The notes under the pieces were generated by a model. It was not told the origin of the DNA, did no database searches, and saw only the letters and a list, made by a program, of their open reading frames with translations. A stretch of DNA of 64,000 nucleotides from Candidatus Woesearchaeota archaeon (GTDB taxonomy: Archaea; Nanobdellota; Nanobdellia; Woesearchaeales; JACPBO01): the NCBI GenBank assembly GCA_030651135.1, contig JAUSCS010000006.1, positions 522,160 through 586,159 on the forward strand. The letters are read 5' to 3'. This document shows, in pieces, positions 31,567 through 40,036 of the stretch. A program made the translations under genes and the position numbers. The first letter of the stretch is position 1, and each line of letters starts with the position of its first letter.

Positions 31567-31926
31567 ATGGAGCAGAAAATAAGCGCATTGGTGACTGTTT
31601 TTCTTGTATTTGCAATCCTGCTTACAGGAGCAGCAGTTTATCATAATATGGAGAAATGGTCGTGGGTTGATTCATTTTACTTTTCAACCACAACATTGAC
31701 AACAATCGGATTTGGGGATCTTCATCCGACAACAAATGCATCAAAAATATTTACGATTTTTTACATACTCATAGGCGTAGGCGTAGTTTTTTATATGCTT
31801 TCCACAATAATCCTGAACTATGTCGAGGGCCATAAAAGAACAATAACAAAGTCGCTTTTAGGCACATTAAGCATGAAAAAAGAGCCCGAAAGGTGGATTG
31901 AGCTTAAAGTTAAGAAAGAGAAGTAG
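31567..31926 (+). CDS. minimal 2-TM potassium channel
   Basis: Selectivity filter TTIGFGD (TxGYGD-like) between two TM helices. Confidence 0.7.
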   Translation: MEQKISALVTVFLVFAILLTGAAVYHNMEKWSWVDSFYFSTTTLTTIGFGDLHPTTNASKIFTIFYILIGVGVVFYMLSTIILNYVEGHKRTITKSLLGTLSMKKEPERWIELKVKKEK

Positions 31927-32860
31927 GAGTTAGATTTCTCAGATACAGCTCAAGCTTGTTTTTTACTTTTTCTTTCAGGTTTTCATCAATTTTTAGTCTT
32001 TTAACCTCTTTATCAACATCAAACCTTTTGAATTCTGTTAAAGTTCCTTTAAACTTTCTTCCTGCAATCTTTGCCTGTTTTTCAATTTCTTTCGCATATT
32101 CTGAGCCAAAGTAGCGTATTACAGGAAACTTGCTTATTGAATTTGCTCCTGCTTTCAGCAGATCAGAAACATAGTCGACCCTGTCCAGCCATATTCCTGC
32201 CTGTATGTCTATTTTTGGGAATTCTTTTCTTGTGAGCTTTATCCATTCTGCCATATATTCTTTTTTCGGAGGGCTTGATTTTTCAAAGATTGTGCCTTTC
32301 TGCGGGTTTAAGCCATAGAAGTGTATTTTTGATATTTTGTATTTTTTAATGAACACTTTTAATTTTTTAAAATCATCAATATTTTCTCCTAAGCCGAGTA
32401 TTATTGTCATTGCAGTCTTTAGCTTCAGCTTCAGGGCTTCTTCAAGCATTTTTTCAAATGGCTTAATTGGCTTTGAAGGGCAGACAAAAGAATGTACTTT
32501 GGGATTGATAGTTTCTATAGATGCAACAACGCCTTTAATGTACGGCTTGAATTTTGTTAATTCTCTTTTTTTTATTGGGCCTATATTGATCCATATCTTT
32601 TCATTAATGGTTTTTTTTATTAATTTCAATAATTCTAAAAAATCCGTTGCTGCATACGCATTATGGCCGCCTGACAGGAAGCCGATATCCCAGCCGAGCT
32701 TTTTGCACAGGATGAATTCAGCCAAGATCGAAGCAAATGATCTTACAGCCATCTTTTGGCCTTTCGGTTGGGTGCTCATATAGCAGAACTTGCAGTCAGC
32801 AGTGCTGCAGTACCAGCTGAAGAAAATTGCGCGCTCGAAATTCGTTTTAGTTAGTTTCAT
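31910..32860 (-). CDS. radical SAM superfamily protein (BioB/ThiH-like) with non-canonical Cx4Cx2C
   Basis: YCSTADCKFCYMS cysteine cluster. TIM-barrel-like length. Confidence 0.55.
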   Translation of the reverse strand: MKLTKTNFERAIFFSWYCSTADCKFCYMSTQPKGQKMAVRSFASILAEFILCKKLGWDIGFLSGGHNAYAATDFLELLKLIKKTINEKIWINIGPIKKRELTKFKPYIKGVVASIETINPKVHSFVCPSKPIKPFEKMLEEALKLKLKTAMTIILGLGENIDDFKKLKVFIKKYKISKIHFYGLNPQKGTIFEKSSPPKKEYMAEWIKLTRKEFPKIDIQAGIWLDRVDYVSDLLKAGANSISKFPVIRYFGSEYAKEIEKQAKIAGRKFKGTLTEFKRFDVDKEVKRLKIDENLKEKVKNKLELYLRNLTPTSLS

Positions 32861-32894
32861 TTAAAAGCCCCCAAAGGGATTTGCACCCTTGATC

Positions 32895-33902
32895 TTATAA
32901 ATCTTTAATTTTATCTAAATGTTTTTTATTGGAAAAGCCAATTTCTTTTATAAATTTATTAACGTTTTCAAAGCCATTAATTTGAATAACATGTTTTCTG
33001 CCATTAATATATGCTCTTGGATTTAAATTAAGGTTTTTTAATATATTGTAAACTTGGTTCATTAAAGGTACACTTACCGTGCCTAGTTGTACTCTTAAAT
33101 ATGGCGTTTTGTAAATTTTTCTTTTATCATAAAAAATACAGCCGTCAGTATCATAAATGCCCCTAATACAATTAGTAATTGATTTTTGATCCTCAGAATT
33201 AACAATTTCATCAGGTATTGTTACAGTATATGATTTTTTACCAGATGGAAATTTGAATCTTTTTGTCAATAAATTATAAAATTCCTTGGAGTATATTGTC
33301 ATTCTCATCGTATTATCTTTTTCCGTAATGATTGGATTTGAATTTGGGCTCATTTCTTTAATAATTGGTTTTAGAGTTTCAACAATGTATTCTTTATCGA
33401 GTTTAGAATGTCCTGTAAATTGAATCATATACATGCCGCCATATTTATTGGTAAACCCATCTCCTATAAATGCGCCAATTAATTCGCATAATTGCGGGGT
33501 TAGAGGCGTATCAAATTGAAAATTATACCTGCCGCATCTAGCACTTTTAGCTCCAATCTTTCTTCCTTTTTCAAAAATATATCTGTGTTTTTTATAAGTA
33601 GCAAGCCCCCCTTTAATCATCCCCCAATTTCTATCTTTTAAGAAGATTTGTTTATTAAAGAAGTTGTTATCATCTGTGCTTAAATGAGACAATAAATCTA
33701 AGAAAGTAGAATAAGGTATTGAAATATCACCATCTCTTAAATGTTCTAGTCTTGATTTATAAATGCCAAAATGCTTTCTTAATTCTTTCCATGTACCGAA
33801 CTGAGCCTTAAGCTTAGCAAAGAATTCATCCCTGATAGTATCATCTCTAAAGAAGACTCTTTTAGAAAGCAATTCTTCATTGAGTGATTTTTTATTTTTC
33901 AT
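32895..33902 (-). CDS. free-standing double-motif LAGLIDADG endonuclease-like protein
   Basis: LCELIGAFIGDGF and IRGIYDTDGCIFYD motifs. Paralog of 39122..39880. Confidence 0.7.
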   Translation of the reverse strand: MKNKKSLNEELLSKRVFFRDDTIRDEFFAKLKAQFGTWKELRKHFGIYKSRLEHLRDGDISIPYSTFLDLLSHLSTDDNNFFNKQIFLKDRNWGMIKGGLATYKKHRYIFEKGRKIGAKSARCGRYNFQFDTPLTPQLCELIGAFIGDGFTNKYGGMYMIQFTGHSKLDKEYIVETLKPIIKEMSPNSNPIITEKDNTMRMTIYSKEFYNLLTKRFKFPSGKKSYTVTIPDEIVNSEDQKSITNCIRGIYDTDGCIFYDKRKIYKTPYLRVQLGTVSVPLMNQVYNILKNLNLNPRAYINGRKHVIQINGFENVNKFIKEIGFSNKKHLDKIKDL

Positions 33903-33927
33903 AATAATGCTTTTTGGAAAAATAAAA

Positions 33928-34016
33928 AGCCCCGGAGGAGATTTGCACTCCCGACCTGCTGATTACGAATGCTGATCAATTGCTGTCAGCCGCAATAGCT
34001 ACTATGCTACCGGGGC
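33928..34016 (-). tRNA. tRNA-like gene with ~16-nt insertion (probable intron) in the anticodon loop and atypical T-loop (G55); anticodon unresolved (GCA or CGT)
   Basis: Acceptor GCCCCGG/CCGGGGC, D-arm GCAT-AGTAGCTA-TTGC, anticodon stem GCTGA/TCAGC enclosing 23 nt, variable AGGTC, T-arm GGGAG-TGCAAAT-CTCCT. Confidence 0.45.
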
Positions 34017-34021
34017 ATTTA

Positions 34022-34180
34022 TCATCTAATATTCTTCAGCAGTTCTTCCTTGCTCTGAAACTTCTTCTGGCATTCAAAGCAGAAATAATGCTGCTTCCCC
34101 TTCTCATCTTTTGCCATTGTCCCGATTATCTTCTTCAAAAATGTTTCATTCACCTTGTTGCCGCATATTTCGCATTTCAT
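34022..34180 (-). CDS. small zinc-ribbon protein
   Basis: MKCEICGNK...CFECQKK (two CxxC pairs). Internal Met chosen because the track start abuts the divergent ABCE1 start. Confidence 0.4.
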   Translation of the reverse strand: MKCEICGNKVNETFLKKIIGTMAKDEKGKQHYFCFECQKKFQSKEELLKNIR

Positions 34181-34258
34181 AGGATGATTAATTTTTGTCT
34201 GTTTATAAACGTTTTTAAAATCGTAAGCTTTATTAAACAATAAACAAAAACAGACCAT

Positions 34259-36013
34259 ATGGCAAGAATCGCTGTTGTTGAAAAGGACAAATGCAACCCG
34301 GAAGGCTGCGGAAACTATCTTTGCATTAGAGTGTGCCCTGTCAACAGGATCGGCAAGGACTGCATAGTTAAAGGCCTAACCACAAAAGCGCAGATTGATG
34401 AAGAGCTTTGCACAGGCTGCGGCATATGCGTCAACAGATGCCCTTTTGGAGCGATACACATCATTAACCTTCCAGAGGAATTGAAAGAAGGCCCAATACA
34501 CCGCTACGGCAAAAATGGATTTGCTTTATACAGGCTGCCAATCCCAATATTCGGCAAAGTTGTCGGAATTTTGGGAGTCAATGGAATCGGAAAAACAACG
34601 GCATTAAAAATATTAGCAGGATTGCTGAAGCCAAATTTTGGAAAGGAAGAAGAAGCAACTTATGACGAGCTGATATATCATTTCAAAGGCAGCGAAGCCC
34701 AGTCTTTCTTTGAGAAAATAAAGAAAGGCCAGATAAAGATAAGCTATAAGCCGCAGCAGGTTGATGCAATCCCGAAAACAGCAAAAGGAAAGGTAATTGA
34801 TCTTTTAAAAAAAGTGGATGAAAAAAAAGAATTGAGCAGGGTTGCAAAGCAGCTGGAGATTGAAAAAATACTCGACAATAACATCAATGAAATCTCTGGA
34901 GGAGAGCTGCAGAGAGTTGCAATTGCAGCAACTGTCTTGAAAAAAGCGAATCTCTATGTTTTTGACGAGCCATCTTCTTATTTGGATATAAAGCAAAGAA
35001 TTAAAGTAAGCAAATTCATCAAAAGCCTTGCAGATGAAAACACAGCAGTAATGGTTGTTGAGCATGATCTGATTATTCTGGATTACATGACTGACCTGAT
35101 TCACATGATGTACGGCAGGGAAAGCGTTTATGGAGTTGTTTCGCAGCCAAAGGCAACTAGGAACGGAATAAATATTTACTTGGATGGCTATCTGAAAGAA
35201 GAAAATGTCCGCTTTAGGGATAAAACAATAAAATTTTCTGTAAAGCCGCCAACAGAATCCAAAAAAAGAATGCTGCTGACAGGCTGGCATGATATTGAAA
35301 AAAAGCTTGGAGCCTTTAAGTTGAAAGCTGAAAAAGGCGAGTTGCACAGGCACGAAACAATAGGCATTTTGGGAGAGAATGGAATCGGAAAAACAACATT
35401 TGTGAAAATATTGGCAGGAGCCTTAAAGCAGGACAAAGGAATTGTTGACCAAAACATTAAAGTAAGCTATAAGCCCCAGTACATCGAAACAAAATCAGAT
35501 GAGCTTGTAATGGTTGCTTTAAAGGAAGCAATGCAGAAATACGATGTTCAATTAATGAGGCCTCTAAATCTTAAGCATTTACTGACTAAAAAGATAAGCG
35601 AGCTTTCAGGCGGGGAATTGCAGAGAGTTGCTATTGCGCATTGCCTTTCGCAAAAAGCAGATCTTTATCTTTTAGACGAGCCTTCTGCTTATCTTGATAT
35701 TGAGCAAAGGCTGGTTGTTTCAAAAGTCATACACGATATAATGGAAGAAAGGGGAACATCAGCATTGGTTGTTGATCACGATTTGCTGTTTATTGATTAT
35801 TTGTCAGAGGGGTTAGTTGTGTTTATAGGTGAGCCTGCTGTCCATGGCGAGGCAAAAGGCCCATTTAACATGAAAGACGGGATGAATATGTTTTTAAGAG
35901 AACTGGGCGTTACATTAAGGCGCGACAAAGAATCAAACAGGCCAAGGATCAACAAGGAAGGATCCCAGCTTGACAGGGAGCAGAAAGATCAGAATAAATT
36001 GTATTATGGCTAA
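34259..36013 (+). CDS. abcE1: ribosome recycling factor ABCE1 (RNase L inhibitor homolog)
   Basis: N-terminal 2x[4Fe-4S] ferredoxin cysteine clusters plus two ABC cassettes. Confidence 0.9.
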   Translation: MARIAVVEKDKCNPEGCGNYLCIRVCPVNRIGKDCIVKGLTTKAQIDEELCTGCGICVNRCPFGAIHIINLPEELKEGPIHRYGKNGFALYRLPIPIFGKVVGILGVNGIGKTTALKILAGLLKPNFGKEEEATYDELIYHFKGSEAQSFFEKIKKGQIKISYKPQQVDAIPKTAKGKVIDLLKKVDEKKELSRVAKQLEIEKILDNNINEISGGELQRVAIAATVLKKANLYVFDEPSSYLDIKQRIKVSKFIKSLADENTAVMVVEHDLIILDYMTDLIHMMYGRESVYGVVSQPKATRNGINIYLDGYLKEENVRFRDKTIKFSVKPPTESKKRMLLTGWHDIEKKLGAFKLKAEKGELHRHETIGILGENGIGKTTFVKILAGALKQDKGIVDQNIKVSYKPQYIETKSDELVMVALKEAMQKYDVQLMRPLNLKHLLTKKISELSGGELQRVAIAHCLSQKADLYLLDEPSAYLDIEQRLVVSKVIHDIMEERGTSALVVDHDLLFIDYLSEGLVVFIGEPAVHGEAKGPFNMKDGMNMFLRELGVTLRRDKESNRPRINKEGSQLDREQKDQNKLYYG

Positions 36014-36390
36014 GTTTTCTCTTGAAGCTTTAATTTTTCAATAACAGATTTAGCAAATCCGCTTACATTTTGATCTAAGTCATTTGTATAATGTTCAATG
36101 GCTTTGTAATAGTTATCGTCATTCATGCATTTGTATGCTCGTTTAAGATATTTTATAAAATATTTTTTAGCCAATTCTGGCTTAAAAGACAGGCCATGTC
36201 CTTGAGGATCGCCTGCCAGCTCTATACATCTGCCAATAACATATTCTGAACCATAAAGTTTATGAGTTTCGAGCATAGCCCTGTACATAATTCTACCGAG
36301 GCCTCTTTCGCCAAATCTTGTCAGCAAGCCTGTCAAGTCCGCATATTTCAGTTTCTTTATTATCATGTTGTTTTTTATTTCTTTCATCAA
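36010..36390 (-). CDS. hypothetical protein
   Basis: 126-aa ORF. Confidence 0.4.
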   Translation of the reverse strand: MMKEIKNNMIIKKLKYADLTGLLTRFGERGLGRIMYRAMLETHKLYGSEYVIGRCIELAGDPQGHGLSFKPELAKKYFIKYLKRAYKCMNDDNYYKAIEHYTNDLDQNVSGFAKSVIEKLKLQEKT

Positions 36391-36494
36391 ATAACACTAC
36401 TAAAAAGGAGTAATTCAAATTTATATAAAACTTTTCACCATTTTTTACGCTAAATACGAAAGATTTAAATAAAATAAGCTTAATTAGATTAAAA

Positions 36495-37577
36495 ATGACT
36501 GATTTTATTGGCATGGTTGTTGAATCAGACTATGGCAGGGAGATTAAAGTAGATCTTAAAGATAAAAAAATCCTCGGCGCATTGGCTGTGAATGCCAGGC
36601 TAAGCCCTAGCGAGATTGGAAGAATCGTTGGGCTGTCGAAAGATGCTGTAAGATACAGAATCATTCAGCTTGAGAAAAAAGGCATAATAAGGGGCAGCGT
36701 TGTCATCGCAAACCCGTCAAAAGTGGGCTATTACCTGCATACAGTATTACTGAAGCTTGAAAACCTGTCTGAGGAGCGGGAGAACGAGCTAATCAAATTT
36801 TTCGCAGCTTTTCCTTTAGGAATATGGTTCGGCAAGTGCAGCGGCAGGTGGGATTTTGTTTTTGAAGTCATAGCTAAGGACATGAAGCAATTTGACAAGA
36901 TAATGCAGAAGATAAAATCAGTCTGCGGAAAAAACTTAAGAGATTATGAAAGCTTAACTGCATTTAACTTAGTTAAATATGTGGATTTGCCAGATGATTT
37001 CTACAAAGATCTTGGATTAAAGTTTGAATTCGAAAGAAAAAGCGTTGCATTCGCAAAGGAGATCAAAAAAGGGATAATCGAATTCGACTATGAAAAGCAA
37101 ATAAAGCTCGATTTAACTGATGCCAGAATATTGAAAGCTTTGTCTGAAAATGCTTGTGCTCAAATATCTGAAATAGCCAATAGAACTAGAATTCCAAGGG
37201 ATACAGTTGTTAATCGCATAAGGAGCATGGTCAATAATGGATTAATAATTGCATTCAACCCGATTATAAATCTCACTTATCTGAAATATCATCTGTATGT
37301 TGTGTTTTTTCACTTGGCTAACCTGACAGATGAAAAAGAGAAGGAATTTTTCAATTACATGTCTGTGCACTCTTTTGTTGCATACGGCGCAAAGCTGATG
37401 GGAAAATACGAAGCCCAGATATTCCTGATCGTAAAGGATCCAATGCACATGCACGAAATAATGATGGAATTCAGAAGAAAGTTTTCAGGCATTATTGAAG
37501 ACTATGAGCCTCTGCTGGTCATAAAAGACTATAAATATAATTTCCTGCCGGAAGGTGTTTTTCCTAAAATTATCTAA
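36495..37577 (+). CDS. tandem Lrp/AsnC-like wHTH transcriptional regulator
   Basis: Two HTH_AsnC-type segments (LKDKKILGALAVNARLSPSEIGRIVGLSKDAVRYRI and LTDARILKALSENACAQISEIANRTRIPRDTVVNRI). Confidence 0.6.
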   Translation: MTDFIGMVVESDYGREIKVDLKDKKILGALAVNARLSPSEIGRIVGLSKDAVRYRIIQLEKKGIIRGSVVIANPSKVGYYLHTVLLKLENLSEERENELIKFFAAFPLGIWFGKCSGRWDFVFEVIAKDMKQFDKIMQKIKSVCGKNLRDYESLTAFNLVKYVDLPDDFYKDLGLKFEFERKSVAFAKEIKKGIIEFDYEKQIKLDLTDARILKALSENACAQISEIANRTRIPRDTVVNRIRSMVNNGLIIAFNPIINLTYLKYHLYVVFFHLANLTDEKEKEFFNYMSVHSFVAYGAKLMGKYEAQIFLIVKDPMHMHEIMMEFRRKFSGIIEDYEPLLVIKDYKYNFLPEGVFPKII

Positions 37578-38137
37578 GCCCTTCCTTTGCTTTCTCCCAT
37601 TGCAATCCCTGCTGCGATCAAATGCGCCACTCTAAGCGGCTCTGGAATGTAAGAATGAGTGCAGCTGATCTTCAGGATCTGTTTTGCTTGCTCTAAATTT
37701 AAACCAGCTAGCTGCACATAGATCTTCCCAGCCTTGATCACGTCGCCTGCTTTCTTTATACGTTTTATTTTGCTTTCTTTTTTTATCTTTTTCAAAGCAT
37801 CGAATATTTTTTTAAAATCCGGGTAATCCCTTATGACAATAATAACGGGGATTTTTGTTTTTTTATTTAATTCATTAACATCAACAACATTAAAGCCGCC
37901 CATTGCAATTCCGTTAAGGGCAATGCATCTTATCTGCGATTTAAACTTAGACTTTTTGATCATTTTAATCAGCTTGCTAGTTGAATCACCGCCATCAACC
38001 TTTATCTTGGTTGACATAACGCCGTCCATGAAATTGCCGCCTCTGAACAGAACACCGATAACCAGATTATCGCCTTTCTTGAATTTTTCAAAAGGTGAAT
38101 CATCTATTCCTAAAATGCGGATTTCTTCTTTCATCAT
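37574..38137 (-). CDS. DUF99 (UPF0215) family protein
   Basis: RILGIDDSPF...VIGVLFRG...KVDGGDST pattern of archaeal DUF99. Confidence 0.55.
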   Translation of the reverse strand: MMKEEIRILGIDDSPFEKFKKGDNLVIGVLFRGGNFMDGVMSTKIKVDGGDSTSKLIKMIKKSKFKSQIRCIALNGIAMGGFNVVDVNELNKKTKIPVIIVIRDYPDFKKIFDALKKIKKESKIKRIKKAGDVIKAGKIYVQLAGLNLEQAKQILKISCTHSYIPEPLRVAHLIAAGIAMGESKGRA

Positions 38138-38300
38138 CTCATCGCTTTTAATTTAGGTATTACAAAATACGCTATAAATGCGCACAATATTATTATAAAC
38201 CAGAAATAAAAGGTGCTTATTACGCCAAAAGCAAAAAGGATCATGTTAATGACAACCACCACTGTAAAAATTATTGCCATCAGCTTAATCGGTTCTTTTG

Positions 38301-39089
38301 TCATTTTATCTTCCTGCAGAAGCTCAAAAATCCTGTGTGACCGATGCCTTTTGTCTTTGGCCTTACTTTCCTTTCATCAACCTCCCATTCCCTTTCGATT
38401 ATTTCAATGGTTTTTACATGGATAAACCTTTCGTCCTTATTGATCACATTTACAAAATCCATCATCTGCGGAACTGAGGGCGAGTAGGAAATAACAAAGC
38501 CGCCAACCTTTAACGCTGCATAAGCGCTTTTTATAGCATTCCACGGCGAAGGCAGGTCTAATGTAATTAAATCAACATCTTTCTCGTCAATTCCATTGTA
38601 AATGTCTTTGTTTTTTATTTTTAAGTTATTTAAATTTAAAAATTCTTTATTCCTTTTAACAATTTTTAAAAAATCCTCCCTTATATCGTAGGTTATGACT
38701 TCCTTGCATAAATGAGCCAAGAAACAAGCCAATGCGCCTGATCCAGCTCCAGCATCTACAACAACAGAATTCTTGTTTATTCCTGTTTTTGCGATTATTG
38801 CTGCAATGTCTTTTAATGAAATTATCTGTGCTTCTCTTGCAATTCTTTTATAATCATCCATAAAGCCGGATGTGAAAATGCAGAATTTCTTTCCTGTATT
38901 TGTTGCTATTTCGCTTCCGTCTTTCTTTTTCAGGTCAGCTTTGGAAATAACGCCGTCTGCTGTATGAAAATCCTTGGTCAAATCCTCAACAAAGTATGCC
39001 TTTTCTTTTGAAATAACAACATCTCTGTTTAATTCTGCAATATGCTCTTTTTTCTCTTTTTTTATCAGAACTTTTCTTATTGGTTTCAT
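38301..39089 (-). CDS. trmI: tRNA (adenine-N1)-methyltransferase TrmI (GCD14 family)
   Basis: SAM motif VVDAGAGSGALACFLA. Start at the internal Met so the ORF does not overlap the tRNA at 39104..39210. Confidence 0.8.
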   Translation of the reverse strand: MKPIRKVLIKKEKKEHIAELNRDVVISKEKAYFVEDLTKDFHTADGVISKADLKKKDGSEIATNTGKKFCIFTSGFMDDYKRIAREAQIISLKDIAAIIAKTGINKNSVVVDAGAGSGALACFLAHLCKEVITYDIREDFLKIVKRNKEFLNLNNLKIKNKDIYNGIDEKDVDLITLDLPSPWNAIKSAYAALKVGGFVISYSPSVPQMMDFVNVINKDERFIHVKTIEIIEREWEVDERKVRPKTKGIGHTGFLSFCRKIK

Positions 39090-39103
39090 GTTTTTAAAAT
39101 AAA

Positions 39104-39210
39104 AAGGGCCCGGTGGGACTTTCAAAGCCAAAGTTTTGAACCTTCAGCCAATTTGAACCCACAATCTTCCGCTCTGCAGGCAGACGCCTTGCCGGATTCG
39201 ACCACGGACC
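39104..39210 (-). tRNA. tRNA-Cys (GCA) with ~33-nt intron in the T-loop
   Basis: Acceptor GGGTCCG/CGGGCCC, anticodon stem TCTGC/GCGGA, loop CTGCAGA, variable AGATT, T-stem GTGGG/CCCAC enclosing a 40-nt loop that begins TTCAAAT. Confidence 0.6.
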
Positions 39211-39880
39211 CTTTCAGTAACCACAATCGACTTCTTAATGTTATTTTCGGCTTATAATAACCCAATCTCCTCCAAAGTAAATATTTTGTTAAATTTTTTT
39301 CTGTACTGAATCCAATCTCATTTACCCATTTCTTTAACATCATTGGCCCACTTAAATAGAGCCTTATCGTAGTATCAGATACTACAGAATTGCTAGTTAC
39401 TTTAAAATCTTTTTGTTTTAAGATGTTTTTTATTTGATTTAACAATTTTTCACTGCATGTCTTTATTTCTATTCTTGGGTAAGTGGGGTATTTGAATTTT
39501 TTACTTTTTGAAAAATATAAAGAGCCATCTGTTTCAAATATTCCGCGAATTATATGTTTGGAATATTTCCATTGTAAAAATTGTTTAGGTATTTCTGTAT
39601 TATGAGATTTATTTTTAAATTTTATTTTAATCTCATTTATCAAATATTCTACAAACTTTTTATTATTGAACTCTAATCTTAAGGATTCACCAAGTTTTTC
39701 TTTTTTGATTCTGGTTAGCGGCCTTTTTTTTGTTAGTTTATAAAGCAAGTTTGAAATCTTTAAAAAGTAATCTTTTTGCTCTTTGGCATTACCAGCGAAT
39801 TCAACCCTATATGTTCTGGGAGGGTTATAAATAATAGAACCATCTCCTATAAAAGCACCAATAAATTCATAAAAGTTCAT
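39122..39880 (-). CDS. free-standing double-motif LAGLIDADG endonuclease-like protein; 3' end overlaps tRNA-Cys
   Basis: FIGAFIGDGS and IRGIFETDGSLYF. Paralog of 32895..33902. The last ~30 codons read through the tRNA-Cys gene. Confidence 0.65.
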   Translation of the reverse strand: MNFYEFIGAFIGDGSIIYNPPRTYRVEFAGNAKEQKDYFLKISNLLYKLTKKRPLTRIKKEKLGESLRLEFNNKKFVEYLINEIKIKFKNKSHNTEIPKQFLQWKYSKHIIRGIFETDGSLYFSKSKKFKYPTYPRIEIKTCSEKLLNQIKNILKQKDFKVTSNSVVSDTTIRLYLSGPMMLKKWVNEIGFSTEKNLTKYLLWRRLGYYKPKITLRSRLWLLKGSVVESGKASACRAEDCGFKLAEGSKLWL

Positions 39881-39889
39881 TTTATAAAG

Positions 39890-39988
39890 CGGGCCTAGGA
39901 GGATTTGAACCCCCGACCTTCAGCTTAGAAGGCTGCCGCTCTATTTGCCTGAGCAAAGTTAGTTGCTCACCAGACTGAGCTATAGGCC
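39890..39988 (-). tRNA. tRNA-Arg (TCT) with ~25-nt insertion in the D-loop
   Basis: Acceptor GGGCCTA/TAGGCCC, D-arm GCTC-AGTCTGGT[insert]TAGAGC, anticodon loop CTTCTAA, T-arm GGGGG-TTCAAAT-CCTCC. Confidence 0.6.
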
Positions 39989-40036
39989 CATAAGAACAAG
40001 AATTGGTTTTTTGTTTATAAATGTTATCAAAGAAAT

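What the first reader, a model, noticed from the sequence alone, without database searches (positions are those of the whole stretch)
32895..39988. Intron-bearing tRNA genes interleaved with free-standing paralogous LAGLIDADG ORFs
Three minus-strand tRNA genes here carry insertions at non-canonical positions: tRNA-Arg(TCT) in the D-loop, tRNA-Cys(GCA) in the T-loop, and a tRNA-like gene at 33928..34016 in the anticodon loop. Two paralogous double-motif LAGLIDADG proteins (32895..33902 and 39122..39880) sit immediately 3' of or between these tRNAs, and the second ORF reads through ~90 nt of tRNA-Cys. LAGLIDADG genes normally reside inside introns or inteins. Free-standing copies next to intron-split tRNA genes suggest either tRNA-targeting mobile endonucleases that seeded these introns, or domesticated maturase-like factors.
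Basis: partly seen in the sequence, partly recalled or inferred. Interest (0 to 1): 0.75.

Follow-up and report, generated by a model that had tools for sequence, protein, structure and literature searches.

The report
Homing-endonuclease cassettes lodged in archaeal tRNA genes
In this DPANN archaeon, two stand-alone LAGLIDADG nuclease genes sit in or against tRNA genes, and related genomes show that one is a roughly 1-kb, probably mobile cassette that inserted into the tRNA-Thr gene while supplying a replacement tRNA end, an arrangement I could not find reported for tRNA genes.

Summary
Three minus-strand tRNAs (Thr-CGT, Arg-TCT, Cys-GCA) carry short insertions at 32/33, in the D-loop and in the T-loop. 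Each has a bulge-helix-bulge-like motif and becomes a canonical cloverleaf once the insertion is removed. Two paralogous double-motif LAGLIDADG ORFs abut them, and ORF2 reads 90 nt into tRNA-Cys.

Comparative data change the meaning. The ORF1 family (an N-terminal domain found only in this family, plus an I-DmoI-like core) occurs at 261 loci across DPANN species and almost always touches a tRNA-Thr gene. Each endonuclease clade is tied to one isoacceptor and one geometry. Relatives with the same synteny (ABCE1, Zn-ribbon gene, tRNA-Thr, radical-SAM gene) lack the ORF. In the window, a displaced tRNA-Thr 3' fragment lies directly after the ORF1 stop and keeps the native junction with the radical-SAM gene. 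Most related loci show such remnants.

ORF1 is therefore best read as a free-standing homing-endonuclease cassette that invades a tRNA gene and carries a replacement gene end, like fungal mitochondrial "mORFs". ORF2 orthologues keep the Arg–ORF–Cys arrangement and include frameshifted copies.

The short introns are not linked to the nucleases, because empty sites have them too. I found no published description. Cleavage activity is untested.

The parts
33928..34016 (-). Intact tRNA-Thr(CGT) gene. It is 73 nt mature plus a 16-nt intron. The acceptor stem GCCCCGG/CCGGGGC pairs 7/7. The T-loop is the unusual TGCAAAT.
   Evidence: ARAGORN in intron mode. The spliced form is called as a canonical tRNA.
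33969..33984 (-). 16-nt intron at position 32/33 of tRNA-Thr. The motif is a relaxed hBH: central helix GCTG/CAGC, bulges ACA and ATT, and a 6-bp outer helix.
   Evidence: BHB search, MFE fold, shuffle control 265/20000.
33903..33927 (-). 25-nt T/A-rich spacer, TTTTATTTTTCCAAAAAGCATTATT. It probably holds the tRNA terminator and a TATA-like promoter for a leaderless ORF1 mRNA (inferred).
   Evidence: Sequence. The spacing is 5-42 nt in related loci.
32895..33902 (-). ORF1, 335 aa. Residues 1-135 form a helical N-terminal domain found only in this family. The rest is a monomeric double-motif LAGLIDADG endonuclease core (D148 in motif 1; D in motif 2).
   Evidence: Pfam. 338 homologues. Alignment A1. 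AF2 model with pLDDT 92. Best PDB matches are I-DmoI and I-Tsp061I. The N-domain occurs only in this family.
32866..32895 (-). Displaced remnant of a tRNA-Thr 3' part (variable loop, T arm, acceptor 3' strand, discriminator): AGATC AAGGG TGCAAAT CCCTT TGGGGGC T. It starts at the last base of the ORF1 stop codon and ends 5 nt before the radical-SAM start codon.
   Evidence: It has the same 6-9-nt junction to the radical-SAM ATG as the intact tRNA has in the empty sites L161, L167, L168 and L171. It pairs only 6/7 with the 5' acceptor strand.
39890..39989 (-). tRNA-Arg(TCT) gene with a 25-nt D-loop intron at 39945-39969. Central helix GTCT/AGGC, bulges GGT and AAA, inner 6-bp hairpin GAGCAA/TTGCTC.
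   Evidence: 1/20000 shuffles. Partial Rfam tRNA hit.
39122..39880 (-). ORF2, 252 aa, a double-motif LAGLIDADG endonuclease without the N-terminal domain. The conserved core ends near residue 222. The last ~30 codons are tRNA-Cys sequence, and the stop codon lies in the tRNA-Cys intron.
   Evidence: (variable tRNA-derived tails in orthologues).
39105..39211 (-). tRNA-Cys(GCA) gene with a 33-nt T-loop intron at 39119-39151 (position 59/60). Central helix TTCA/TGAA, bulges AAT and AGT, outer helix equal to the T stem, inner 8-bp helix.
34022..34180 (-). 51-aa zinc-ribbon gene, used as the left synteny anchor. It ends 5 nt before tRNA-Thr. The 78-aa ORF listed by the ORF listing is probably over-extended at its 5' end.
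   Evidence: homologues of 51-52 aa. (synteny).
31910..32860 (-). Radical-SAM gene, used as the right synteny anchor. In cassette-free relatives it starts 6-9 nt after the tRNA-Thr(CGT) 3' end.

Best explanation
ORF1 and ORF2 are free-standing LAGLIDADG homing-endonuclease genes whose home sites are tRNA genes.

ORF1 is the only gene of a ~1.06-kb cassette (window ~33957..32896) that sits inside what was a contiguous tRNA-Thr(CGT) gene. The cassette brings its own copy of the tRNA 3' part. An intact tRNA-Thr is therefore rebuilt on its left, and the resident 3' part is pushed to the right of the ORF as a dead remnant.

Inferred mechanism, not shown here: the nuclease cuts cassette-free tRNA-Thr alleles within the gene body. 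Double-strand-break repair then copies the cassette from an occupied allele, using tRNA sequence on both sides as homology. The conserved tRNA sequence makes the target durable and transferable between lineages. The cassette-linked tRNA copy escapes cutting through sequence differences or an intron.

Sister clades of the same family use mirror-image versions of this arrangement at the D-loop and T-arm of tRNA-Thr(GGT).

ORF2 belongs to a sister family lodged between tRNA-Arg(TCT) and tRNA-Cys(GCA).

The short tRNA introns are ordinary archaeal BHB-type introns removed by the splicing endonuclease. They are not produced by these nucleases.
For: Shown by tool results:
1. LAGLIDADG identity and retained catalytic acids across both families. 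The fold is closest to the archaeal intron-encoded I-DmoI and I-Tsp061I, TM 0.69-0.78 normalised to the target.
2. Adjacency to tRNA genes in 68/80 ORF1-family loci and 51/80 ORF2-related loci, against 4-7% expected, p<1e-50.
3. Endonuclease clades coincide with tRNA-Thr isoacceptor and geometry.
4. Cassette-free sites with the same synteny: ABCE1 / Zn-ribbon gene / tRNA-Thr(CGT) / radical-SAM gene in L161, L167, L168, L171 and L172. Their ABCE1 is 67-70% identical to the window's, against 64-67% for occupied relatives, so occupied and empty genomes interleave.
5. The window remnant at 32895..32866 keeps the native junction with the radical-SAM gene. By my reading of the local alignments and downstream sequences, about 29 of 33 CGT-type loci show a tRNA 3' remnant after the stop, some degenerate or truncated; the strict T-arm scan alone recovers about 20. 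In several loci the ORF stop TAA is tRNA positions 36-38.
6. The intact copy always pairs 7/7 in the acceptor stem, while remnants pair 4-7/7 with it. Alleles are swapped between lineages: the window remnant resembles the intact T arm of L002 and L008, and the L008 remnant resembles the window's intact T arm.
7. GGT-type loci have a 15-nt tRNA 5' remnant plus a TATA-like motif upstream of the ORF in the loci inspected; the L054 copy is decayed.
8. Frameshifted or truncated ORF2-family copies: L103-L106 and L117.
9. A published precedent has the same architecture with a biochemically proven endonuclease: fungal mitochondrial mORFs and Allomyces atp6 (PMC3630166).
Against: - No cleavage activity or target site has been demonstrated.
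- The ORF1 family is intact and full length over 35-86% identity. The Zn-ribbon gene/tRNA-Thr/ORF block is inherited vertically in at least 13 loci. A purely selfish gene would be expected to decay more often.
- The rebuilt tRNA contains the same region as the presumed target, so self-immunity is unexplained.
- Empty sites could reflect precise loss by recombination between the repeats rather than absence of gain.
- For ORF2 in the window, no remnant and no empty site were found. Its start codon lies only 9 nt from the end of tRNA-Arg, and its stop lies inside the tRNA-Cys intron, so its expression is uncertain.
- No close copies occur in viral contigs, so no transfer vector is known.
Confidence: 0.7

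Rival explanations
1. The LAGLIDADG proteins are domesticated host factors. They would act on the neighbouring tRNA gene or transcript (regulator, processing or splicing helper), and adjacency would be kept for co-expression.
For: The ORF1 family is conserved at full length, including an N-terminal domain found only in this family, across several DPANN phyla. There is local vertical inheritance with conserved upstream synteny. WhiA is a precedent for a domesticated LAGLIDADG fold and appears among the fold hits.
Against: Relatives at the same ABCE1 distance lack the gene at the same site. The catalytic acids are conserved, unlike in WhiA-type domestication. Displaced tRNA fragments flank the ORF. 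Frameshifted ORF2-family copies exist. The ORFs are not inside group I introns, so the maturase analogy has no substrate.
Confidence: 0.12
2. The complete-plus-partial tRNA pattern is the scar of integrase-mediated integration of a larger virus or plasmid. The LAGLIDADG gene is a surviving passenger.
For: Integrative elements typically leave one complete and one partial tRNA copy at their two ends (PMC9897764). A Caldiarchaeum tRNA-Thr(GGU) fragment flanks a 1.8-kb recombinase element (PMC3293823).
Against: In dozens of independent loci the unit between the intact tRNA and the remnant is only the LAGLIDADG ORF, with the remnant 0-20 nt after the stop. No integrase or recombinase was evident next to the LAGLIDADG ORF in the gene lists seen, and in the window ORF1 fills the whole interval between tRNA and remnant. 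Endonuclease clades follow the insertion geometry. No close homologues occur in viral contigs.
Confidence: 0.05
3. The ORF is, or recently was, carried in a giant BHB intron of tRNA-Thr. The distal 3' fragment would be a usable 3' exon, so the locus would yield tRNA by alternative splicing, and the excised RNA would serve as the endonuclease mRNA, as with archaeal rRNA introns.
For: The closest structures are archaeal intron-encoded enzymes. In many loci the remnant begins in the anticodon loop at positions 36-38, next to the canonical 37/38 intron site. Many remnants keep a fully paired T stem.
Against: A complete tRNA with a perfect acceptor stem precedes the ORF in every CGT-type locus examined, whereas remnants mismatch the 5' acceptor strand. 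Some remnants are truncated (window, L006, L035). No BHB at the distal junction was established.
Confidence: 0.06
4. The adjacency is coincidental or an annotation artefact. The insertions would mark pseudo-tRNAs.
For: Default tRNA finders miss these genes. ARAGORN in intron mode gives some spurious anticodons in related loci.
Against: The spliced sequences are canonical tRNAs. The BHB controls argue against chance. Adjacency is significant at p<1e-50.
Confidence: 0.01

Closest known systems
Fungal mitochondrial mobile ORF elements (mORFs): Allomyces macrogynus atp6, Glomus atp6/atp9/cox2/nad3 hybrids (PMC3630166 and the work cited there)
   Same: A free-standing LAGLIDADG (or GIY-YIG) endonuclease gene is inserted in a host gene and carries a replacement copy of the gene's terminal segment. 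The result is an intact hybrid gene, then the endonuclease ORF, then a displaced and diverged native end. The ORF often runs in phase into the flanking gene sequence.
   Different: The host here is an archaeal chromosome, not an organelle. The target is a tRNA gene, not a protein-coding gene, so the replaced part is 15-38 nt. 5'-end, 3'-end and inverted versions all exist. The ORF1 family has an extra N-terminal domain found only in this family.
Archaeal intron-encoded LAGLIDADG homing endonucleases (I-DmoI, I-Tsp061I, I-PorI) in rRNA BHB introns
   Same: Monomeric double-motif LAGLIDADG fold. These are the best structural matches. The host domain is Archaea and the target is a conserved stable-RNA gene.
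   Different: Those enzymes sit inside a spliced intron that restores the RNA. Here the ORF is not inside an intron, and gene integrity is kept by duplicating part of the gene.
Free-standing phage homing endonucleases in tRNA clusters (T4 SegB, T5 F-Tfl enzymes) and 'intronless homing' (from my own knowledge, not checked in the library)
   Same: A free-standing endonuclease gene lies next to tRNA genes and spreads by cleavage of a nearby site and co-conversion of flanking markers.
   Different: Those are GIY-YIG or HNH enzymes in phage genomes, lying between genes without partial duplication of the tRNA. Here the enzymes are LAGLIDADG enzymes in cellular archaeal genomes with a gene-end replacement architecture.
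Integrase-mediated integration into tRNA genes (SSV/pNOB8-type elements, genomic islands; PMC9897764, PMC3293823)
   Same: An intact tRNA lies at one end of the inserted DNA and a partial tRNA copy at the other. The breakpoints lie in the anticodon loop or T loop.
   Different: No integrase is present. The inserted unit is about 1 kb with a single LAGLIDADG gene. The repeats are diverged alleles (54-79% identical) rather than identical att sites.
Non-canonical BHB introns of archaeal tRNAs (Thermoproteales, ARMAN/Micrarchaeota; epsilon2 and alpha2beta2 EndA, PMC3488258, PMC5829648)
   Same: Short introns at 32/33, in the D-loop and in the T-loop, with relaxed hBH / HBh' motifs.
   Different: Nothing unusual beyond their position. 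They occur with or without a neighbouring LAGLIDADG gene.

Membership tests
LAGLIDADG homing endonuclease (monomeric, double-motif) | Two LAGLIDADG motifs, each ending in a conserved acidic residue | tested here: met
   ORF1 has GAFIGDG and RGIYDTDG. ORF2 has GAFIGDG and RGIFETDG. D148 is invariant, and the second-motif acid is D or E in all 27 sequences of A1. D13 and D118 are invariant in A2.
LAGLIDADG homing endonuclease (monomeric, double-motif) | Tandem alpha-beta-beta-alpha-beta-beta-alpha fold | tested here: met
   AF2 model with pLDDT 92. Foldseek matches I-DmoI at E 7e-9 with target-normalised TM 0.76, and I-Tsp061I. This was done for ORF1 only. ORF2 is inferred from 30% identity and Pfam.
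LAGLIDADG homing endonuclease (monomeric, double-motif) | Site-specific double-strand cleavage of the cassette-free allele | not testable with these tools
   Needs an in vitro cleavage assay.
LAGLIDADG homing endonuclease (monomeric, double-motif) | Presence/absence polymorphism at a fixed genomic site among relatives | tested here: met
   For ORF1, the occupied window and L001-L011 contrast with the empty L161, L167, L168, L171 and L172 at the same synteny. This was not tested for ORF2.
LAGLIDADG homing endonuclease (monomeric, double-motif) | Residence inside a self-splicing intron, BHB intron or intein (the usual but not obligatory location) | tested here: not met
   Complete tRNAs flank the ORFs. 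The tRNA introns are 16-33 nt and contain no ORF.
mORF-type gene-end-replacement element | Intact hybrid host gene, then endonuclease ORF, then displaced and diverged native gene end | tested here: met
   For ORF1: intact tRNA-Thr 34016..33928, ORF, then remnant 32895..32866. No remnant was found for ORF2 in the window. L102 in the ORF2 family has one.
mORF-type gene-end-replacement element | The native remnant resembles the allele of cassette-free relatives more than the inserted copy does | tested here: inconclusive
   The window remnant keeps the native junction to the radical-SAM gene, and its T arm (AAGGG/CCCTT) matches the intact alleles of L171 (cassette-free; its T loop differs by one base), L002 and L008. 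With about 30 nt, no robust phylogeny is possible.
Archaeal BHB-type tRNA intron | Two 3-nt bulges separated by a 4-bp helix at the exon-intron boundaries (strict hBHBh' or relaxed form) | tested here: met
   Relaxed forms occur in all three: Thr hBH, Arg HBh', and Cys with a 4-nt 5' bulge or a 5-bp central helix.
Archaeal BHB-type tRNA intron | Removal gives a canonical cloverleaf with an intact anticodon loop | tested here: met
Archaeal BHB-type tRNA intron | Splicing in vivo, and a broad-specificity EndA in the genome | not tested
   There is no RNA data. The window was not searched for EndA, and the rest of the 731-kb contig is not available.
Integrase-type integrative element in a tRNA gene | A tyrosine or serine recombinase gene within the inserted DNA | tested here: not met
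   The DNA between the intact tRNA and the remnant is filled by the LAGLIDADG ORF alone.
LAGLIDADG maturase | Encoded in, and assisting the splicing of, a group I intron | tested here: not met
   Rfam finds no group I intron in the window, and the ORFs are free-standing.

The most novel reading that the evidence does not exclude
tRNA genes of DPANN archaea are under sustained attack by a diversified guild of gene-body-targeting LAGLIDADG endonucleases (Thr x3, Cys, and probably Glu, Gln, Phe, Lys). The unusually frequent non-canonical D-loop, anticodon-arm and T-loop introns of these tRNAs would then be maintained, at least in part, because they split the nuclease recognition sites and so act as immunity. 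Alternatively, they would be the decayed residues of such cassettes. The three insertion positions of the cassettes (D-loop ~15/16, anticodon loop ~35-38, T arm ~52) coincide with the three loops that hold the introns in this window. The window's Thr intron at 32/33 lies 3 nt from the cassette junction seen in sister loci.
Probability: 0.15. Interest if true: 0.88.

Novelty: new variant of a known kind. Interest (0 to 1): 0.72.

Why it matters
If the cassettes are active, three things follow.

1. Homing endonucleases would have a third way, besides introns and inteins, of colonising an essential stable-RNA gene in cellular genomes: they carry a spare gene end. That strategy has so far been documented for protein-coding genes of fungal mitochondria.

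2. Many tRNA-gene fragments and mis-called or missed tRNAs in DPANN genomes would be explained.

3. It would provide a natural set of monomeric LAGLIDADG nucleases, each clade tied to a defined, highly conserved 20-30-bp tRNA-gene target. The ORF1 family also has an accessory N-terminal domain found only in this family. Both are useful for studying specificity and for engineering.

It also makes the long-standing proposal that tRNA gene disruption (introns, split genes) protects against invading elements directly testable. One could express the nucleases and compare cleavage of intron-containing and intron-less alleles.

Tried and rejected
- An exact-sequence lookup of ORF1 found no record, so the window's own contig could not be extended.
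- Rfam at gathering threshold and default ARAGORN were not informative for these tRNAs.
- I looked for a tRNA-Cys or tRNA-Arg remnant around ORF2 in the window and in orthologous loci. None was found except in L102, with a possible one in L100.
- I tested whether introns go with the LAGLIDADG gene. Empty sites carry introns in 3 of 6 distinct alleles, and occupied sites in roughly 12 of 40 by my count over, so the link was rejected.
- The N-terminal domain gave no Pfam hit at E<=10. PDB sequence hits were insignificant at E 0.35-0.42. It occurs in no other protein context. Its function remains inferred.
- Viral contigs hold only 22-32% identical LAGLIDADG relatives.
- Four literature searches for a prior description found nothing linking LAGLIDADG genes to tRNA genes in DPANN archaea. 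Subscription journals are not covered.
- TGT-type (divergent) loci show no convincing remnant.
- I considered ARAGORN's odd anticodons next to ORFs (Stop, Pyl, aat and so on). By eye most are mis-modelled multi-intron tRNA-Cys or tRNA-Thr genes, and I did not use them as isotype evidence.

Full report
**Origin and setting.** The window comes from a Candidatus Woesearchaeota (DPANN) metagenome-assembled genome. ORF1 is 100% identical to an NCBI protein from a 731-kb contig. G+C is about 36%. The genes around the finding are ordinary archaeal housekeeping genes: ABCE1, endonuclease dU, a Trm61/GCD14-like methyltransferase, an Lrp-type regulator, a radical-SAM protein and AlaRS.

- Default ARAGORN finds no tRNA in 32.9-40 kb. 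Rfam at gathering threshold finds only a partial tRNA hit at 39898-39954.
- ARAGORN in intron mode, reading by hand and a search for bulge-helix-bulge (BHB) geometry give three minus-strand genes:
  - tRNA-Thr(CGT) 34016..33928, with a 16-nt intron 33984..33969 at position 32/33.
  - tRNA-Arg(TCT) 39989..39890, with a 25-nt D-loop intron 39969..39945.
  - tRNA-Cys(GCA) 39211..39105, with a 33-nt T-loop intron 39151..39119 at position 59/60.
- Deleting these segments gives sequences that ARAGORN calls as canonical tRNAs.
- Each intron has a 4-bp central helix flanked by 3-nt bulges at exactly the positions that produce the mature tRNA, in relaxed forms. Shuffled introns reach the same quality in 265, 1 and 188 of 20000 trials.
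- ORF1 (33902..32895, 335 aa) and ORF2 (39880..39122, 252 aa) both match Pfam LAGLIDADG_3 and are 30% identical.
- ORF2 runs through the first 90 nt of tRNA-Cys and stops inside its intron.
- No other LAGLIDADG ORF is present in the window.

**What the proteins are.**
- ORF1 has 338 detectable homologues, nearly all 320-360 aa and aligned end to end at 38-86% identity. They come from Woese-, Pace-, Nano-, Iain- (Diapherotrites) and Micrarchaeota.
- The acidic residue of both LAGLIDADG motifs is conserved.
- An AlphaFold model (pLDDT 92) places residues ~136-335 closest to the archaeal rRNA-intron enzymes I-DmoI and I-Tsp061I.
- Residues 1-135 form a helical domain with no Pfam or PDB relative. 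This domain occurs only at the N-terminus of this family (87 clusters).
- ORF2 belongs to a sister family of 220-280-aa proteins without that domain. Their conserved core ends near residue 222. Their C-terminal tails are variable translations of tRNA sequence, for example the recurrent GTAATAVD, WPSG and ASACRA strings.

**The tRNA link is a property of the families, not of this window.**
- In 80 ORF1-family loci from GTDB species representatives, 68 have a tRNA touching the ORF. Among 80 ORF2-related metagenomic loci, 51 do. The expectation from the tRNA density of the flanks is 4-7% (p<1e-50).
- For the ORF1 family the partner is almost always tRNA-Thr, in four geometries:
  - Thr(CGT) on the same strand, 5-42 nt upstream of the start codon.
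  - Thr(GGT) on the same strand, overlapping the stop codon.
  - Thr(GGT) convergent, overlapping the 3' end of the ORF.
  - Thr(TGT) divergent, 74-91 nt upstream.
- A neighbour-joining tree of the proteins separates exactly these four groups. This is what is expected of homing-endonuclease lineages that each keep one home site.
- ORF2 orthologues (43-60% identity) keep tRNA-Arg(TCT) 58-150 nt upstream. tRNA-Cys(GCA), often with several introns, starts 2-40 nt after the conserved core.
- More distant relatives abut Glu, Gln, Phe, Lys and other tRNAs.

**Empty sites.**
- I used the 51-aa zinc-ribbon gene that precedes tRNA-Thr as an unbiased anchor. I then looked up seven of its homologues on long contigs.
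- None of these loci contains a LAGLIDADG gene. This was checked by profile search for L161-L166 and from the Pfam gene tables for L167-L172.
- Five loci (L161, L167, L168, L171, L172) keep the window's synteny: ABCE1 divergent, the zinc-ribbon gene, tRNA-Thr(CGT), then the radical-SAM gene. In these, the radical-SAM start codon lies 6-9 nt after the tRNA 3' end. L161 has an extra 311-aa ORF between the zinc-ribbon gene and the tRNA.
- In the window, ORF1 lies between that tRNA and that gene.
- ABCE1 of the empty-site genomes is 67-70% identical to the window's. ABCE1 of occupied relatives (L001, L002, L006, L008) is 64-67% identical. Occupied and empty genomes are therefore interleaved.

**The remnant.**
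- The window reads AGATC AAGGG TGCAAAT CCCTT TGGGGGC T at 32895..32866, starting at the last base of the ORF1 stop codon. This is followed by TTTAA and then the radical-SAM ATG. The segment is the variable loop, T arm, acceptor 3' strand and discriminator of a tRNA-Thr. It has the same spacing to the radical-SAM gene as the intact tRNA has in the empty sites.
- It differs from the 3' part of the intact upstream tRNA (GGGAG…CTCCT CCGGGGC) by compensatory T-stem changes. It pairs only 6/7 with the 5' acceptor strand.
- The inserted unit is therefore about 1.06 kb (33957..32896). It consists of a replacement tRNA 3' part, a 25-nt T/A-rich spacer and the ORF.
- The same arrangement recurs in CGT-type loci. 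By my reading of the alignments and downstream sequences, about 29 of 33 show a remnant, some degenerate or truncated; the strict T-arm scan alone recovers about 20. In L013, L024, L038, L045 and L059 the ORF stop codon TAA is tRNA positions 36-38, and the remnant continues through position 73. In L029 the remnant starts at about position 27. In L006 and L035 only the last ~15 nt survive.
- Intact copies always have 7/7 acceptor pairs. Remnants have 4-7/7. The two copies are 54-79% identical over 24 compared positions.
- Alleles are exchanged between lineages. The window's remnant T arm equals the intact T arm of L002 (and the T stem of L008). The L008 remnant resembles the intact copies of the window and L001. 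This argues for repeated invasions rather than one ancient event.
- GGT-type loci are the mirror image. A ~15-nt tRNA 5' remnant (GCCTCTGTAGCTCAG) and a TATA-like ACACAAAATATATAAA motif precede the ORF. The intact tRNA overlaps the ORF's last codons. The remnant is recognisable in all six loci inspected, although the L054 copy is decayed.
- Convergent loci L046 and L066, and the ORF2-family locus L102, have a 21-30-nt 3' remnant in inverted orientation.

**Interpretation.**
- The pattern is an intact gene, an endonuclease ORF, then a displaced and diverged gene end. This is the architecture of fungal mitochondrial mobile ORFs (Glomus atp6, atp9, cox2 and nad3). For the Allomyces atp6 prototype the endonuclease was shown biochemically to drive mobility (PMC3630166).
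- It also resembles the scars of integrase-mediated integration into tRNA genes (PMC9897764; PMC3293823). Here, however, the only gene present is the LAGLIDADG enzyme.
- I therefore read ORF1 as a free-standing homing-endonuclease cassette whose home site is the body of the tRNA-Thr(CGT) gene. I read ORF2 as a related element housed between tRNA-Arg(TCT) and tRNA-Cys(GCA).
- Five ORF2-family loci carry frameshifted or truncated copies. This fits the invasion, decay and loss cycle of such genes.
- Shown here: protein identity and fold, retained catalytic residues, target-linked clades, presence/absence at one site, and the flanking remnants.
- Inferred, not shown: DNA cleavage, the exact target, repair-mediated copying, self-immunity of the rebuilt tRNA, and the promoter role of the spacer.

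**Points against, and rivals.**
- The ORF1 family is remarkably intact, and the zinc-ribbon gene/tRNA-Thr/ORF block is inherited vertically in at least 13 loci. A host function therefore cannot be excluded (rival, 0.12).
- Empty sites could arise by recombination between the repeats, so individual gains and losses cannot be polarised.
- For ORF2 in the window there is no remnant and no empty-site test. Its ATG lies 9 nt after tRNA-Arg, and its stop lies in the tRNA-Cys intron. If the flanking tRNAs are processed, the mRNA would lack a stop codon.
- Passenger-of-an-integrated-element and giant-intron readings are possible but poorly supported.

**The introns.**
- They look like ordinary non-canonical BHB introns of the kind known from lineages with broad-specificity splicing endonucleases (PMC3488258, PMC5829648; seen).
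- Cassette-free tRNA-Thr(CGT) genes have them (L161, L163-166, L167/171/172). Most cassette-linked ones do not.
- The data therefore give no support to the idea that the endonucleases seeded them.
- One coincidence is worth testing. Cassette junctions fall in the D-loop, anticodon loop and T arm, the same three places that hold introns here. The window's Thr intron lies 3 nt from the junction used in sister loci. An intron there would split a 20-22-bp LAGLIDADG site.

**Novelty.** Searches of the open literature found no paper that links LAGLIDADG genes to tRNA genes in DPANN archaea. The mechanism class is known (homing endonuclease, mORF-like gene-end replacement). Its use on tRNA genes in cellular archaeal genomes, by a large family with target-specific clades and an N-terminal domain of its own, appears to be a new variant.

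Noticed in passing
L170 3236-3340 versus L169 3236-3245: Two otherwise near-identical loci differ by a ~94-nt insertion immediately after the tRNA-Thr(CGT) 3' end. It is flanked by a 9-nt direct repeat, TCTCGAGGC, which is the acceptor 3' strand. This looks like a small non-coding mobile element that also targets this tRNA end.
   Followed up: no
window 33928-34016; also L001-L011, L168, L169: tRNA-Thr(CGT) of this lineage has the T-loop TGCAAAT/TGCAACT (G at position 55 instead of the near-universal U) and a D-loop AGTAGCTA without the GG pair. This may be a D-loop/T-loop covariation. It occurs with and without the LAGLIDADG cassette.
   Followed up: partly
L083, L084, L093, L097, L099, L106 (100-140 nt after the ORF2-type core): tRNA-Cys(GCA) genes downstream of ORF2 orthologues appear to carry two or three separate insertions. 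ARAGORN mis-calls them as Stop, Pyl, Leu or Lys tRNAs.
   Followed up: partly
window 39880-39890 and 39119-39124: ORF2 starts 9 nt after the tRNA-Arg discriminator, directly behind a TTTATAAA box, and its stop codon lies inside the tRNA-Cys intron. If both tRNAs are processed from a common transcript, the released mRNA would have almost no leader and no stop codon.
   Followed up: no
window 39089-39131: The TTG start listed for the Trm61/GCD14-like methyltransferase ORF (39131) overlaps tRNA-Cys. The ATG at ~39089 is the more likely start. A tRNA m1A58-type methyltransferase gene directly follows a tRNA whose T-loop is interrupted.
   Followed up: no
L053, L007, L010, L015 (record titles): Contigs carrying the DPANN-type LAGLIDADG/tRNA-Thr locus are deposited under 'Candidatus Falkowbacteria bacterium' and 'uncultured Methanosarcinales archaeon'. 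These are probably mis-binned or mislabelled contigs.
   Followed up: no
window 32895-40000: Standard tRNA detection (default ARAGORN, Rfam gathering threshold) misses all three tRNA genes here. Automated annotation of such genomes will under-count tRNAs and over-extend neighbouring ORFs. Examples are the 78-aa call for the 51-aa zinc-ribbon gene and the ORF2 tail.
   Followed up: yes
L161 3662-4597: In one cassette-free relative, a 311-aa ORF with no Pfam hit lies on the opposite strand between the zinc-ribbon gene and tRNA-Thr(CGT). This is another indel at the same hotspot. It is not a LAGLIDADG protein by profile search.
   Followed up: partly
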